Source: a virus (Duplodnaviria; Caudoviricetes). Taken from it: DNA of 64,000 nt. The notes beneath the pieces are model-generated. The model saw only the letters and a list, made by a program, of their open reading frames with translations. It was not told the origin of the DNA and searched no databases. The position numbers and the translations under genes are program-made. Of this stretch, positions 48,425 to 53,340 are shown one piece after another (positions within the stretch are counted from its first letter, which is position 1; the number at the start of each line of letters is the position of its first letter). The stretch spans positions 96,001-160,000 of IMG/VR virus record IMGVR_UViG_3300014590_000001; one strand, given 5' to 3'.

Positions 48425-48496
48425 GACAAAATACCTTTTATAAAATTGGGAGAGTTTGGAGCGCGGCGTAATTACCGCGCCAATCGAATTTATTTA

Positions 48497-50128
48497 TTAG
48501 CCTTTAGCCAGCAGAGCGCGGAGTTTTTTCTCGCTCATGTTTTCGGCGGCGCGAACTTTCGCAAGACCTTTCTGAACTACGATATCGCGCAGTTCGTCTT
48601 CGTCCAGATCTTCGTAATCGTCGTCTTCGCCTTCTTCAAAATCTTCGTCTTCTTCGTTGCTGTCTTCGCCGTCTTCGTCAGAAACAACTGGTGAGTATTC
48701 TGACAGGCCGGAAATATCTTCGTTGCTAAACGCTACAACTTCTTTACCGCCTTCTTCAATCACCAGCAGATCCGCGTCTTCATCCATGCCGACATAAATC
48801 AGAGTGTCTTCGCCGTCTGTCAGTTTCAGACCAGCAACCAGCGCAGATTCAGGAACGCCCCACAGTTCGGACAGCATGGACAGGTTTTCTTCTGTCACTT
48901 CTGAATCACGTCCGGCTAACTGCTTTTTAGTCAGCGAAACATATTCGTATTCTTCGCCGTCTTCGTCTTCACCGTCTTCAGAATCGTCATCGGAATCTTC
49001 GCCGTCTTCTGAATCGTCTTCATCCTCTTCGTCCTCTTCGGACTCTTCTTCTTCCTCTTCCTCTTCTTCCTCGTCTTCATCTTCATCTTCATCTTCAGCA
49101 ACCAATTCATAGTGGCTCAAAGATCCGGTGGAGATAGTGCGGAATTTTTCGGTTTCGGTGTTGAACAGTACAGCTTTGTTGTTATCGTCAACGCTTGCGC
49201 CGCAGAAAACAAACTGACCATCTTCACCTTCGCGAACCAGCAGAGTGCCAGCAGTCATATCGCTCGCATCAACGCCGAGGTGTTCAGAGATTGCAGCCGC
49301 CAGTTTTTTACCGACAGTTTTACCAACACGCGATTTGATTTTCTTCGCCAGTTCCGGAGAAATTTCATAACCGCCGTTGATTTCTTCAGGCTCAGGCTGC
49401 GCCAGTGCGTATTTGAAATTCATCGTTACGCGAATGTCGCCACCAGTGCGATCAAACTCAGTCGAGTAACCAACTTCGAATGCGTTTTGAATCGCCGCGT
49501 TGTTTTCGTCAAACTTCGCGAGAGAAGAATCTTTCGCGACTGCCATCAGACGTTCAGTAATAACTTTCGCCAACGGTTCGCCAACTTCAGACAGTGACAC
49601 GGTGCCTTTCGGTTTGATACCAAAGTCGCTCATTTCAACGCCAGCGTTTTTAGCGCCACGACGTTTAACAGTGCGACCAGTTGTTTCTTCTACATCAACA
49701 TCCGCAGCTTTGCGGCGAACTTTAGAAGGTTTCTCTTCAACGTCTTCAACGTCTTCAGCAGGTTTGCGACCGGAAGTTTTGCGGCCAGTAGTTTTAGCTG
49801 GCTTGTCTTCAGCAGGTTTGCGACCGGAAGTTTTCTTGCCAGTTGCTTTAGCAGGTTTTTCTAAGAAAGCGTCAGTGCCAACTTTTTTCTGCATCGCTTT
49901 GTCGGAAAATTCAACGTAGCCGTTTCCGGTGTCGTTCAGTTCACGCAGAGACACGTTAGGGATTTCGTAAAACATCGCGCCCTTTTTCGCAACCTGCTTG
50001 CTGTTCACACGAACAGAGCGGTCTGCAACTTTGTAGCCAGTAGCTACAGCAGCGGTGATTTTAGTTTTGGTGCCGTCCAGCAGAACAATTGATTTACCGA
50101 TCAGAGCTTTGTTAGTTGCGATTGCCAT
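48497..50128 (-). CDS. Bipolar protein: basic N-half, acidic C-half, internal duplication, terminal helical repeat
   Basis: KTSGRKPAED repeats, E/D tracts, C-terminal DYEDLDEDELR...LRALL. Confidence 0.85.
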   Translation of the reverse strand: MAIATNKALIGKSIVLLDGTKTKITAAVATGYKVADRSVRVNSKQVAKKGAMFYEIPNVSLRELNDTGNGYVEFSDKAMQKKVGTDAFLEKPAKATGKKTSGRKPAEDKPAKTTGRKTSGRKPAEDVEDVEEKPSKVRRKAADVDVEETTGRTVKRRGAKNAGVEMSDFGIKPKGTVSLSEVGEPLAKVITERLMAVAKDSSLAKFDENNAAIQNAFEVGYSTEFDRTGGDIRVTMNFKYALAQPEPEEINGGYEISPELAKKIKSRVGKTVGKKLAAAISEHLGVDASDMTAGTLLVREGEDGQFVFCGASVDDNNKAVLFNTETEKFRTISTGSLSHYELVAEDEDEDEDEEEEEEEEEESEEDEEDEDDSEDGEDSDDDSEDGEDEDGEEYEYVSLTKKQLAGRDSEVTEENLSMLSELWGVPESALVAGLKLTDGEDTLIYVGMDEDADLLVIEEGGKEVVAFSNEDISGLSEYSPVVSDEDGEDSNEEDEDFEEGEDDDYEDLDEDELRDIVVQKGLAKVRAAENMSEKKLRALLAKG

Positions 50129-50193
50129 GATTATTTCTCCTAAGAAATAGTAGTTGAGGCTTTTAAGTTCGGCACTGCGCCGAGTGAGATTAA

Positions 50194-50249
50194 ATAGTGC
50201 ATGAAACTCTCAGAAGTTTCAATCAACATTTTAGACACTATTTTGCAGA
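50194..50249 (-). promoter_or_regulatory. Box-type promoter 2
   Basis: TCTGCAAAATAGTGTCTAAAA-N6-TTGAAA-N17-CACTAT. Confidence 0.75.
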
Positions 50250-50272
50250 GTTCCCAAAGGTGGAGACTTTGC

Positions 50273-50355
50273 AAAAAAGTGTGGGCATCCATTCCCACAT
50301 AAAGGTTCCAAACAAACTACTTGATACTTGAGGGTTCAGAGCGTTGCCGCCCTGT
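50273..50355 (-). ncRNA. Candidate small RNA, about 83 nt
   Basis: Own box promoter; 5' GCAA-tetraloop hairpin; 3' TGTGGG/CCCACA hairpin with CTTTTTT; no enclosed ORF. Confidence 0.6.
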
Positions 50356-50361
50356 CCTTAT

Positions 50362-50417
50362 ATTCTAGCTGAACGGAGCGGCAAATGCTATCGGTATTTT
50401 GGACACTTATTTGCAGA
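50362..50417 (-). promoter_or_regulatory. Box-type promoter 3 (drives the candidate sRNA)
   Basis: TCTGCAAATAAGTGTCCAAAA-N6-TAGCAT-N17-TAGAAT. Confidence 0.8.
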
Positions 50418-50427
50418 CTTTGAAACT

Positions 50428-50976
50428 TCAGCCCTTGCGAGATTTCGCTTCAGGCATCTGCTTTTTAGGTGGAACCGTATATTTCGATTTCTTAGGTTCC
50501 TTGAATTTCTTCATGCCGTGGCGTGTGCCGTGGATTTTGTTAAAACGATACGTTGCATCCGCAATAAAGCAACGCTTCGAGAAACTGTCTTTTTTAGGCA
50601 GAACCGAATCATCGACAATGCCAAGCGCTTTTACTTCAGCGAGCAGATCTTTAAACTCAGGGAAGAAACCGCACTGGTTATTCATGATCTCGTCAGTTTT
50701 GAAAGGATCGATTTCAACATAACGAATCATGTGAAGCATTTCTTTATTCACACCAGTGACCGCCGAAACTTGTTTTTGAACAATGTCAGACGATTTGGAT
50801 AAATCAGCCAGCGCAGCAAATTCTTTTTCGGTCAGGCCGATTGTTTTCAGAATCGCTTTCTTGCTGTCCTTGTCGCTATGTTCGCTCAGGAATAATTCGA
50901 ATGCTTTTGACAAAGCAACAGAGAGCAGAGCGGCTTGTGATTGGGTTGAGGCTTCGGTGAACTTCATTGTAGTCAT
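50428..50976 (-). CDS. Hypothetical protein with basic C-tail
   Basis: 182-aa ORF directly downstream of promoter 4. Confidence 0.75.
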   Translation of the reverse strand: MTTMKFTEASTQSQAALLSVALSKAFELFLSEHSDKDSKKAILKTIGLTEKEFAALADLSKSSDIVQKQVSAVTGVNKEMLHMIRYVEIDPFKTDEIMNNQCGFFPEFKDLLAEVKALGIVDDSVLPKKDSFSKRCFIADATYRFNKIHGTRHGMKKFKEPKKSKYTVPPKKQMPEAKSRKG

Positions 50977-51014
50977 CCTTTGTAAGTCTAAGCGGTATTG
51001 CTTAGTGAGTCTTT

Positions 51015-51070
51015 ATAGTATGAAAGTTTCGTGTCCAAAACAACCTGTATTTTGGACACTGTTTTGCAGA
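51015..51070 (-). promoter_or_regulatory. Box-type promoter 4 with an inverted extra half-box
   Basis: TCTGCAAAACAGTGTCCAAAA-N6-TTGTTT-N17-TACTAT; second GTGTCCAAAA on the + strand at 51031-51040. Confidence 0.8.
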
Positions 51071-52054: not shown

Positions 52055-52416
52055 TCTTCGTCAGGTTCGTCTTCAGGTTCAGCGCCTACCATCATATCAA
52101 GTTCTTCTATGGATAAATCAAGAGAACTTTCAACGCGACGAGCAGAAAGACGTACCCAATTTCTCGTCTGACTGATAAGCAACAATGCGTACTGGCCGCA
52201 GTCAACAGGGAAGATTAAATATCCACGTTGCCGCAAATGGAATTCCAATTCTTGAAGAACACTCGGTTCGATATAGCTGTTTCTATATCCAAACAGTCCA
52301 GCTACAACGTTGCCCGTAATAATGATACGAGTTATCGTTTTGTTCTTTTCTTCTGCATATGATTTCATGTTAAGAACAAGCAGGGCAGCGACAGCTTCAG
52401 CAGTACGGAATTTCAT
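52051..52416 (-). CDS. Hypothetical protein
   Basis: GGAG RBS. Confidence 0.7.
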   Translation of the reverse strand: MKFRTAEAVAALLVLNMKSYAEEKNKTITRIIITGNVVAGLFGYRNSYIEPSVLQELEFHLRQRGYLIFPVDCGQYALLLISQTRNWVRLSARRVESSLDLSIEELDMMVGAEPEDEPDEE

Positions 52417-52436
52417 AAAATTTTCTCCAGAAAGTT

Positions 52437-52463
52437 AAAAAGGGCAGCACCGAAGTGCCACCC
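52437..52463 (-). terminator. Intrinsic terminator
   Basis: GGGTGGCAC-TTCG-GTGCTGCCC-TTTTT. Confidence 0.88.
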
Positions 52464-52471
52464 GAATTTAT

Positions 52472-53248
52472 TTACGCTTGCTCAGATTTGAAAGCATGTA
52501 CAGCAACCATCATCGAGTCGATGTTAGAAAATTCTGCATCGGAAACTTTGATTTTGTTTGCGATTGCGAAATCTTGAAGTTGCTCAAGATTCCAACCCTG
52601 CATTGCTTTCGCAGCCTTGCGAACGTTTTCTGGACGACCATCATATTCATGGTCAATGTCACGATCATCAACTACTGTTTGATCTTCGTCTTCGTCTTCG
52701 TCCTCACCCCCAAAACCATGTTCAATCAGTTTTTCCGTTGCAGGACTAATCTGGTAGTCATCACTACCTCTGGTGCGACCGATACGAGCACGGACAACTT
52801 TCGTTTTCGTATCAGGCAGACGAATGAACAGACAGTCAGGAGAATCCCAATCAACGAACACCCACGAACCGTAAACGTCAGCAATATCCAAACCGGATAA
52901 TGTGTCGTTGATCAGATCATGCAATCGCGATACGCGAGTGTTTTTCAAAGTGCGTGACATAATCAAATTGATTTCACGCATACTAACTTTGATGATGTTT
53001 TGATCGGAGCCTTCGAGATTATTCTCTTTGGCTATCCGCCATTTCTCTAAAACCGAAACAACAAAACTATTCAAACGGTCTGCATCTGTAATGCGCGCAG
53101 AAATCACTGCTTCAGAATTCTTTGCGCGAACAGAAGCGGGAGCGCCTTTTGCTTTAGCGAGTTTCTTTGCACCAGCTTTAGTTGCATCCGCGTTCTTTTT
53201 AGCACGACCAGCTTCGATTTGTTTTGCGATCACTTTAGGATTAGGCAT
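52472..53248 (-). CDS. Hypothetical protein, paralogue of 54358..55179
   Basis: Start MPNPK (AAGGA RBS); shared core domain. Confidence 0.8.
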   Translation of the reverse strand: MPNPKVIAKQIEAGRAKKNADATKAGAKKLAKAKGAPASVRAKNSEAVISARITDADRLNSFVVSVLEKWRIAKENNLEGSDQNIIKVSMREINLIMSRTLKNTRVSRLHDLINDTLSGLDIADVYGSWVFVDWDSPDCLFIRLPDTKTKVVRARIGRTRGSDDYQISPATEKLIEHGFGGEDEDEDEDQTVVDDRDIDHEYDGRPENVRKAAKAMQGWNLEQLQDFAIANKIKVSDAEFSNIDSMMVAVHAFKSEQA

Positions 53249-53340
53249 TTTGTAGTTCCTTTGGGATTTACGTTGAAAGCATGTAAGGTGAAAACCCCGT
53301 AAATCCTTACACGCTTGTTGAGGCAAGTGCCTCGGTCTTT

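What the first reader, a model, noticed from the sequence alone, without database searches (positions are those of the whole stretch)
50273..50417. Stand-alone ~83-nt small RNA with its own box promoter and terminator
Seen: box promoter 3 has no gene downstream. About 7 nt after TAGAAT the sequence reads ACAGGGCG-GCAA-CGCTCTG (GNRA-capped hairpin), then an unstructured AACCCTCAAGTATCAAGTAGTTTGTTTGGAACCTTT, then TGTGGG-N8-CCCACA-CTTTTTT. The next gene has its own separate promoter 2. Inference: a phage-encoded trans-acting sRNA. Its CCUC/CCUUU segments could pair with Shine-Dalgarno sequences, or it could be a decoy for a host RNA-binding or defence protein.
Basis: partly seen in the sequence, partly recalled or inferred. 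Interest (0 to 1): 0.78.

Follow-up and report, generated by a model that had tools for sequence, protein, structure and literature searches.

The report
Orphan promoter-terminator short RNA unit
A jumbo phage carries a conserved promoter that fires straight into a terminator and should make an ~83-nt RNA; relatives use the same module as a read-through leader, so it is more likely a leaky-terminator control device than a classic base-pairing small RNA.

Summary
On the minus strand, box promoter 1 (50417-50396, 28-nt spacer, TAGAAT) is followed by a GCAA-capped hairpin, a 37-nt linker, an intrinsic terminator with six U (to 50273), then a second box promoter for the 543-aa gene. The box occurs 11 times in the 256.7-kb phage genome. 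Every copy sits 28 nt before a -10-like hexamer, and only this copy lacks a gene.

The unit is conserved in Dickeya JA11/JA13/JA29 phages, with one compensatory pair change in each hairpin. The same layout recurs in Erwinia phages Y3, Yoloswag, SNUABM_7 and SNUABM_30.

Three results argue against a classic seed-pairing sRNA:
- The linker is less conserved (43%) than four-fold codon sites (53-65%), and CCUC is absent in the JA phages.
- In six homologous modules the terminator lies in the only leader of the next gene.
- A covarying RNA hairpin beyond the terminator uses its U-tract as one arm, so read-through RNA is under selection.

Best reading: a dual-output module. Most transcripts end as a short RNA, and a leaky or regulated fraction reads on, as at lambda PR'-tR' (StxS). 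A free-RNA function is not excluded. The scan noted this stretch twice on this genome and never on other DNA.

The parts
50396..50417 (-). Box of promoter P1 (TCTGCAAATAAGTGTCCAAAAT), at about -62 to -41
   Evidence: One of 11 genome-wide copies, all on the same strand and all 28 nt before a -10-like hexamer. It is 87-91% identical to the JA phages.
50362..50395 (-). P1 core: 28-nt spacer with weak -35-like TAGCAT (50390-50385) and -10 TAGAAT (50367-50362)
   Evidence: Fixed geometry shared by all box promoters. The JA phages have TACACT at the same place.
50337..50355 (-). Predicted +1 (A50355) and 5' hairpin H1, a 7-bp stem with GCAA loop
   Evidence: Folds at -12.7 kcal/mol, z -2.8. The closing pair changes G-C to A-U in the JA phages, and the loop is invariant. 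The TSS is inferred from the spacing to the -10 and was not measured.
50300..50336 (-). Unstructured linker
   Evidence: 43% identity to the JA phages with a 9-nt indel, below the four-fold-site identity of 53-65%. Only UGGAAnCUUU just before the terminator is kept.
50273..50299 (-). Intrinsic terminator T1: 6-bp stem, 8-nt loop, C plus U6
   Evidence: Found by the terminator scan. Hairpin energy is -8.3 kcal/mol. There is one compensatory G-C to A-U change against the JA phages, and the U-tract is 100% conserved. Homologous T1 in 8 Erwinia/Dickeya phage modules has 10 of 12 pairs with double changes.
50241..50276 (-). Post-terminator hairpin H3: the U-tract plus GCAAAGUCUCC pairs with GGGAACUCUGCAAAA (13 of 15 pairs), overlapping box 2
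   Evidence: The stems are invariant and the loop varies in the JA phages. The counterpart in 12 relatives' modules covaries: 91.7% paired, score 0.331 against 0.190, 0 of 500 shuffles as high, and many G.U pairs.
50169..50249 (-). Promoter P2 (box 50249-50228, -10 CACTAT 50199-50194) and its 5' hairpin (50183-50169)
   Evidence: Same geometry as P1. From the -10 of P2 through the 5' UTR to the ATG it is 86-93% identical to the JA phages.
48497..50128 (-). Downstream 543-aa gene (phrog_33433, unknown function; basic repeats plus long D/E tracts)
   Evidence: Homologues occur in 58 phage records.
50428..50976 (-). Upstream 182-aa ORFan with its own box promoter (51070-51049). T1 is the first terminator after it, so the short-RNA region is also its 3' UTR.
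   Evidence: It has no homologue in 50,697 phage records and is absent at this site in the JA phages.

Best explanation
This is a real, selected transcription module with two outputs.

P1 is a host sigma-70-type promoter with a weak -35 and a phage-specific 22-bp upstream box. It starts RNA near A50355. The RNA forms a stable GCAA-capped 5' hairpin, and most polymerases stop at T1, releasing an RNA of about 83 nt. The same terminator ends the upstream 182-aa transcript and shields P2.

A leaky or factor-regulated fraction reads through T1. The U-tract is then locked into hairpin H3, and transcription continues into the 543-aa gene alongside P2-initiated RNA.

The module therefore works like the lambda PR'-tR' unit, a promoter-proximal terminator whose short RNA is the default product.

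Shown: the anatomy, the conservation, the covariation of H1, T1 and H3, and the leader use in relatives. Inferred: promoter activity, the TSS, termination efficiency, read-through in this phage, and any regulator.
For: - P1 has exactly the geometry of the 10 gene-serving box promoters.
- The box, H1, T1 and the U-tract are conserved at 75-100% against the JA phages, compared with 53-65% at four-fold sites. Each hairpin has one compensatory change.
- The layout P1, short unit, T1, P2 recurs in Y3/SNUABM_52, Yoloswag, SNUABM_7 and SNUABM_30.
- Six homologous modules (AD1, SNUABM_22, _35, _7 first copy, _5, Yoloswag first copy) have no second box promoter before the next gene. No other sigma-70-like site was found between T1 and the gene in AD1; in SNUABM_7 the only such match overlaps T1 itself. 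Read-through is required in these modules.
- H3 lies beyond the U-tract and covaries with sense-strand G.U pairs.
- In this window, a 9-bp terminator with U5 sits 26 nt before the next start codon with no promoter between them.
- The linker evolves no slower than neutral sites.
Against: - There are no RNA data, so neither the short RNA nor read-through has been observed.
- P2 follows immediately with the same box. P1 read-through therefore seems dispensable for the 543-aa gene, yet the order P1 then T1 is kept in five or more lineages. That fits a function of the RNA itself, or of a factor loaded at P1/H1.
- No alternative antiterminator structure is predicted.
- No antiterminator gene was identified.
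- H3 in the window and the JA phages is invariant and overlaps box 2, so it cannot be tested here and might reflect DNA-level constraint.
Confidence: 0.45

Rival explanations
1. Stand-alone small RNA whose product is the function. This would be an abundant ~83-nt RNA with a protective 5' hairpin and a terminator 3' end. It would act in trans by base pairing (Hfq-type) or by binding or sequestering a host or phage protein through its hairpins.
For: - P1 then T1 is retained directly upstream of an independent P2 in the window phage, the JA phages, Y3, Yoloswag, SNUABM_7 and SNUABM_30.
- The length from TSS to U-tract stays near 74-86 nt in 10 of 14 scored units despite sequence turnover.
- There are compensatory changes in both hairpins, and the GCAA loop is invariant.
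- A U-rich run precedes T1 in nearly all units, and 4-6 U follow it. By established knowledge this resembles the Hfq-binding 3' module.
- There is precedent: the PR'-tR' by-product StxS is a working Hfq sRNA (PMC7547250), and lambda encodes the sRNA LPR1/PreS (doi 10.1101/2024.10.31.621285).
Against: - The only single-stranded segment is not conserved, at 43%.
- No phage target stands out above shuffles, and there is no cognate pairing with the neighbouring UTR.
- There is no Rfam match.
- Host targets could not be searched because the host is unknown.
- A U-rich run before a terminator also occurs at another terminator that follows a gene (window 39239-39210), so it is not specific to this unit.
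Confidence: 0.3
2. Scar of gene loss. In this reading a box-promoter cassette lost its ORF by recombination, leaving the promoter, the 5' UTR hairpin, neutral filler and the old operon terminator, with no function of its own.
For: - SNUABM_30/phB78 acquired the P1-T1-P2 layout by deleting the leader remainder and the genes present in AD1, SNUABM_22 and others.
- Cassettes come and go here: the 182-aa ORFan with its box promoter is an insertion relative to the JA phages.
- The linker evolves at or above the neutral rate.
Against: - A useless promoter should decay. Instead the box is 87-91% identical, the -10 is kept functional-looking, and H1 and T1 keep pairing through compensatory changes.
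- The same layout is present in genera where the flanking protein is only ~33-39% identical.
Confidence: 0.12
3. Origin-type primer promoter. In this reading the short transcript primes or opens DNA for replication, as at the T4 oriF/oriG or T7 phi1.1 promoters.
For: It is an orphan promoter in the DNA-metabolism region (topoisomerase II has the same promoter class), and it is followed by an AT-rich inverted repeat (H3).
Against: - Cumulative GC skew turns at about 88 kb and about 200 kb of the genome, not at 146 kb.
- A strong terminator after ~80 nt argues against a persistent R-loop.
- H3 shows RNA-type G.U covariation.
Confidence: 0.03

Closest known systems
Lambdoid PR'-tR' unit (lambda 6S RNA; StxS of Stx phages, PMC7547250)
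   Same: A constitutive phage promoter is followed within ~80-200 nt by an intrinsic terminator. A short RNA is the default product, and read-through feeds downstream genes. The by-product RNA can gain an sRNA role, as StxS did.
   Different: Here a second promoter of the same class follows at once, so downstream expression does not depend on read-through in this phage. No Q-like antiterminator, Q-binding element or sigma-dependent pause was identified. The phage is a lytic-type jumbo myovirus relative, not a lambdoid.
Enterobacterial 3'-UTR-embedded sRNAs with their own promoter (MicL/DapZ type; from established knowledge)
   Same: The promoter sits just past or inside the end of the upstream gene. 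The sRNA shares the mRNA's Rho-independent terminator, and a U-rich run precedes the terminator.
   Different: Those sRNAs have a conserved seed and known targets. Here the single-stranded region is not conserved, and no target was found.
Transcription attenuators / leader terminators (riboswitch, T-box, trp-type)
   Same: There is a terminator in a 5' leader (true of the AD1-type copies), with short terminated RNA as the off-state.
   Different: No conserved alternative (antiterminator) pairing is predicted, and no ligand-, tRNA- or peptide-sensing element is evident.
Lambda nut/boxB-N antitermination sites (from established knowledge)
   Same: A promoter-proximal hairpin with a GNRA-type loop lies upstream of a terminator.
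   Different: There is no boxA, the loop is not conserved between genera, no N-like gene is known, and 5' hairpins occur on at least 6 of 11 box-promoter transcripts.

Membership tests
Box-promoter class of this phage | 22-bp box, exactly 28 nt, then a -10-like hexamer, on the coding strand of the 134-182 kb gene block | tested here: met
   Two mismatches to the consensus box, a 28-nt spacer, and TAGAAT.
Box-promoter class of this phage | A gene starts 70-120 nt downstream | tested here: not met
   It is the only one of 11 copies without a gene. The next start codon (50128) has its own box promoter.
Intrinsic (Rho-independent) terminator | GC-rich stem-loop directly followed by a U-tract | tested here: met
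   6-bp stem (4 GC), 8-nt loop, C plus U6. Pairing is kept by a double change in the JA phages.
Intrinsic (Rho-independent) terminator | Stops RNA polymerase in vitro or in vivo | not testable with these tools
Hfq-type base-pairing sRNA | Own promoter and Rho-independent terminator with a poly-U tail and an upstream U-rich site | tested here: met
   P1 and T1 with U6. CCUUUAU lies before the stem, and a U-rich run is present before T1 in nearly all related units.
Hfq-type base-pairing sRNA | Conserved single-stranded seed | tested here: not met
   Linker identity is 43%, against 53-65% at four-fold sites.
Hfq-type base-pairing sRNA | Complementary target | tested here: inconclusive
   No phage translation-initiation region scores above shuffles, and there is no cognate UTR signal. 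The host transcriptome was not available.
Lambdoid PR'-tR' antitermination unit | Promoter-proximal intrinsic terminator giving a short default RNA | tested here: met
   About 83 nt from the predicted +1 to the U-tract.
Lambdoid PR'-tR' antitermination unit | Downstream genes depend on read-through (no promoter of their own) | tested here: not met
   P2 follows in this phage. The feature is met in six homologous modules of relatives.
Lambdoid PR'-tR' antitermination unit | Q-type antiterminator and its binding element | not tested
   The neighbouring proteins scanned (eight in all) have no Pfam or PHROG hit to an antiterminator family. There was no genome-wide search.
Riboswitch-like attenuator | Mutually exclusive terminator and antiterminator folds | tested here: not met
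   Without the 3' arm of T1, the 5' arm is captured only weakly in the window and not at all in JA29 or AD1.
Any Rfam family | Covariance-model match | tested here: not met
   No hit at gathering score in the window. Only chance-level hits were found at E up to 10.

The most novel reading that the evidence does not exclude
The unit may be one copy of an undescribed RNA module family of Y3/Alexandra/Salmond-type jumbo phages: box promoter, 5' hairpin, ~80-nt RNA, terminator, and a hairpin that swallows the U-tract. It would work in one of two ways. Either it is a new factor-dependent antitermination or processing switch for host RNA polymerase, or it is an abundant early RNA conserved in shape only that binds a host protein (Hfq or a defence sensor).
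Probability: 0.25. Interest if true: 0.75.

Novelty: new variant of a known kind. Interest (0 to 1): 0.52.

Why it matters
Transcription control in jumbo phages that rely on host RNA polymerase is almost unmapped. This locus gives a compact, conserved test case: a promoter that fires into a terminator, next to a twin promoter. It comes with natural variants in relatives, where the same module is either free-standing or the sole leader of a gene.

The test case could show whether these phages use terminator read-through or antitermination for timing, as lambda and T4 do. It could also show whether such by-product RNAs become regulators, as StxS did. The post-terminator hairpin that pairs the U-tract with a downstream A-tract is a recurring, covarying element with no described role.

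Tried and rejected
- Rfam at gathering and at E up to 10: nothing real. tRNA/tmRNA: none.
- Small ORF: frames in the unit run through the terminator and are not conserved. ORF-like frames in the SNUABM_30 and SNUABM_7 copies are not shared by AD1, SNUABM_5 or the window (inspection).
- Phage targets: the linker was tested against 345 translation-initiation regions. The best score was -22.7 kcal/mol, against a mean best of -27.4 for shuffles. The only strong hit is the locus's own antisense strand.
- Cognate pairing of each phage's short RNA with its own P2 5' UTR: no diagonal signal in a 7x7 matrix.
- Replication origin: GC-skew turns lie elsewhere.
- Antiterminator alternative fold: none conserved.
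- Phasing of the two boxes: spacings of 159-247 bp in different phages show no common helical phase.
- A covariance model across genera was not built, because MAFFT aligned only T1 reliably. Such a model would mainly find terminators.
- Identity of the 543-aa protein: no Pfam, PDB or Atlas lead.
- IMG/VR gave only one extra locus, which lacks the unit.

Full report
**Context.** The window is positions 96,001-160,000 of a single 256,657-bp contig. Its closest database relatives are the Dickeya solani jumbo phages JA11, JA13, JA29 and JA33 (Salmondvirus), which match the 351-nt query spanning the intergenic region at about 76% nucleotide identity. More distant relatives are Erwinia phages Y3, Yoloswag, Alexandra and the SNUABM series, Dickeya AD1 and Yersinia fHe-Yen9-02, at 25-40% protein identity for the downstream gene. 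All genes around the finding are on the minus strand.

**Observation.** The 299-nt gap between the 182-aa ORF (50428-50976) and the 543-aa ORF (48497-50128) reads as follows on the minus strand:
- box 1 at 50417-50396
- a 28-nt spacer
- TAGAAT at 50367-50362
- a 7-bp hairpin with a GCAA loop at 50354-50337
- a 37-nt linker
- a 6-bp, 8-nt-loop hairpin at 50299-50280
- C plus T6, ending at 50273
- box 2 at 50249-50228, then a 28-nt spacer, CACTAT, a 5' hairpin, a strong Shine-Dalgarno sequence and the ATG

The box has 6 matches in the window against 0 expected. It has 11 matches in the genome, all on one strand between 134.7 and 182.3 kb. Each is exactly 28 nt before a -10-like hexamer with a weak TTG/TGG-type -35 at the right place. 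Ten are followed by a start codon within 70-120 nt, including the start of the topoisomerase II large subunit. Only box 1 is not. Rfam and ARAGORN find nothing.

**Conservation in close relatives.** JA29, JA11 and JA13 have the same gap layout.
- Per-segment identity to the window is 87-91% for box 1, 78% for H1, 75% for the T1 stem-loop, 100% for the U-tract, 92-96% for box 2, and 86-93% from the -10 of P2 through its 5' UTR to the ATG.
- The linker is only 43% identical and has a 9-nt indel.
- Four-fold degenerate sites in the flanking genes are 65% (115/178) and 53% (17/32) identical.
- H1 and T1 each carry one G-C to A-U double change that keeps pairing, and the GCAA loop is invariant. With four sequences this is modest support: 29 of 500 shuffles do as well.
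- The change in the 5' arm of H1 is compensated in the downstream arm, not in the promoter-spacer repeat that could also pair with it. This favours H1 as the selected fold (inspection).

**The unit is one copy of a wider module.** Upstream of the 543-aa homologue, five other phages also show box promoter, short unit, strong terminator, second box promoter, then the gene. They are Y3 and SNUABM_52 (Sasquatchvirus), Yoloswag, SNUABM_7 (Snuvirus) and SNUABM_30 (Alexandravirus).
- The distance from the predicted start to the U-tract is 74-86 nt in 10 of 14 scored units.
- T1 hairpins range from -8.3 kcal/mol (this phage, the weakest) to -17.1 kcal/mol.
- T1 aligns across eight modules, with 10 of 12 pairs showing double compensatory changes.
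- Sequence similarity to the window unit is limited to the start (GACAGGGCG against GACAGCGAG) and to the AGGGCG/CGCTCT stem shared with SNUABM_30.

**Leader use in relatives.** A BLAST search with the SNUABM_30 unit found homologous copies 1.3-1.8 kb further upstream in AD1, SNUABM_22, _35, _7 and _5. In these phages, and in a further Yoloswag copy seen in the same locus, the same promoter, hairpin and terminator are followed by about 110 nt of structured leader. Next comes the orthologue of the window's 284-aa gene (52472-53326), with no second box promoter. No other sigma-70-like site lies between T1 and the gene in AD1; in SNUABM_7 the only such match overlaps the T1 hairpin itself. That gene can therefore only be transcribed by reading through T1. 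SNUABM_30 and phB78 reached the P1-T1-P2 layout by deleting that leader remainder and its genes.

**A structure beyond the terminator.** In 12 copies from relatives, the U-tract of the terminator is the 5' arm of a 15-17-bp hairpin (H3) closed by a downstream A-tract.
- On the alignment, 91.7% of cells pair, against 84.0% in shuffles (0 of 500 as high).
- The covariation score is 0.331 against 0.190 (0 of 500 as high).
- Registers slid by one to three columns give 34-67% pairing.
- Three positions are mostly G.U, which would be A.C mismatches on the other strand.

H3 can exist only in RNA that has passed T1, so read-through RNA is under selection in this phage family. The window and the JA phages have an equivalent (50276-50262 with 50255-50241, 13 of 15 pairs). 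It is invariant with a variable loop and overlaps box 2, so it cannot be tested here. Read-through is also built into this phage elsewhere. A 9-bp UUCG-capped terminator with U5 (52463-52442) sits 26 nt before the next start codon with no promoter between them.

**Tests of the trans-acting reading.** The linker's best duplex with 345 phage translation-initiation regions is weaker than those of shuffled linkers. There is no cognate pairing between each phage's short RNA and its own P2 5' UTR. The CCUC motif is absent in the JA phages. A conserved U-rich run before T1 plus the U tail resembles an Hfq-binding 3' module, but a similar run precedes another terminator that follows a gene. Host targets could not be examined.

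**Other readings.**
- GC skew gives no origin signal here.
- No alternative antiterminator fold is predicted.
- A pure deletion scar is unlikely, given conservation of P1, H1 and T1 above the neutral level and across genera. However, cassette turnover is real at this site: the 182-aa ORFan with its own box promoter has no homologue in 50,697 phage records and is absent in the JA phages.

**Conclusion.** The unit is genuine and selected. The parts under selection are the promoter, the 5' hairpin, the terminator and the post-terminator hairpin, not the single-stranded sequence. Together with the leader use in relatives, this favours a dual-output promoter-proximal terminator module (confidence about 0.45). 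Most transcripts end as an ~83-nt RNA, and a leaky or regulated fraction continues, as at lambdoid PR'-tR'.

The retention of P1 before T1 next to an independent P2 remains unexplained by simple attenuation. It keeps open a function of the RNA itself or of a factor loaded at P1/H1 (about 0.3). StxS shows that both roles can coexist. The scan's notes list this same stretch twice on this genome and no look-alike on other genomes.

Noticed in passing
L005:2326-2372, L009:61-104, L010:1250-1298, L014:1293-1342 and others (alignment A2); window 50241-50276: A composite of a terminator plus a post-terminator hairpin. The terminator's U-tract pairs with a downstream A-tract around a covarying inner stem rich in G.U pairs. 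It recurs at several terminators in Erwinia/Dickeya jumbo phages. It may be an RNase III site or a 3'-end structure.
   Followed up: partly
window 52416-52472 (minus strand): A strong terminator (9-bp stem, UUCG loop, U5) lies only 26 nt before the ATG of the next gene, with no promoter between them. Operon-internal terminators imply programmed read-through or antitermination in this phage.
   Followed up: partly
window 53249-53340 (minus strand); L006:900-985, L010:1300-1385, L008:1170-1255: The leader of the 284-aa gene is conserved at nucleotide level across genera, with covarying long-range pairs next to the Shine-Dalgarno sequence (GGATTTACG/CGTAAATCC here, GCGGTTT/AAACCGC in Erwinia phages). 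The listed TTG start at 53326 is probably wrong; the real ATG is near 53248.
   Followed up: partly
window 50428-51070 (minus strand): The 182-aa ORF has no homologue in any of 50,697 phage records and no Pfam or PHROG hit. It is an insertion relative to the JA phages and carries its own box promoter, whose spacer holds an inverted copy of the half-box.
   Followed up: partly
window 50368-50395 with 50344-50355, and other box promoters (genome 152461, 156334, 169424, 149375): Inverted repeats of promoter-specific sequence flank the -10 hexamer of several box promoters. At P1, the arm TTGCCGCTCCGT pairs with ACAGGGCGGCAA in 11 of 12 positions, competing with H1 in transcripts that arrive from upstream.
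   Followed up: no
window 48425-48500 and 52464-52475 (minus strand): The motif AAATAAATTCG follows the stop codons of both the 543-aa and 284-aa genes, just before a GC-rich hairpin. The hairpin after the 543-aa gene has no U-tract.
   Followed up: no
window 48497-50128 (P0001): The 543-aa product is mostly low-complexity: basic KPAK/TSGRK repeats followed by long D/E tracts. It has no structural or family match. Its 5' UTR hairpin loop (CAAUAGU-like) and Shine-Dalgarno region are conserved across genera.
   Followed up: partly
L010:1223-1251: In SNUABM_7, the arms of terminator T1 (TTGACT...TACAGT, 17 nt apart) mimic a sigma-70 -35/-10 pair. A TTGAC start to the T1 stem is shared by several Erwinia phage copies.
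   Followed up: no
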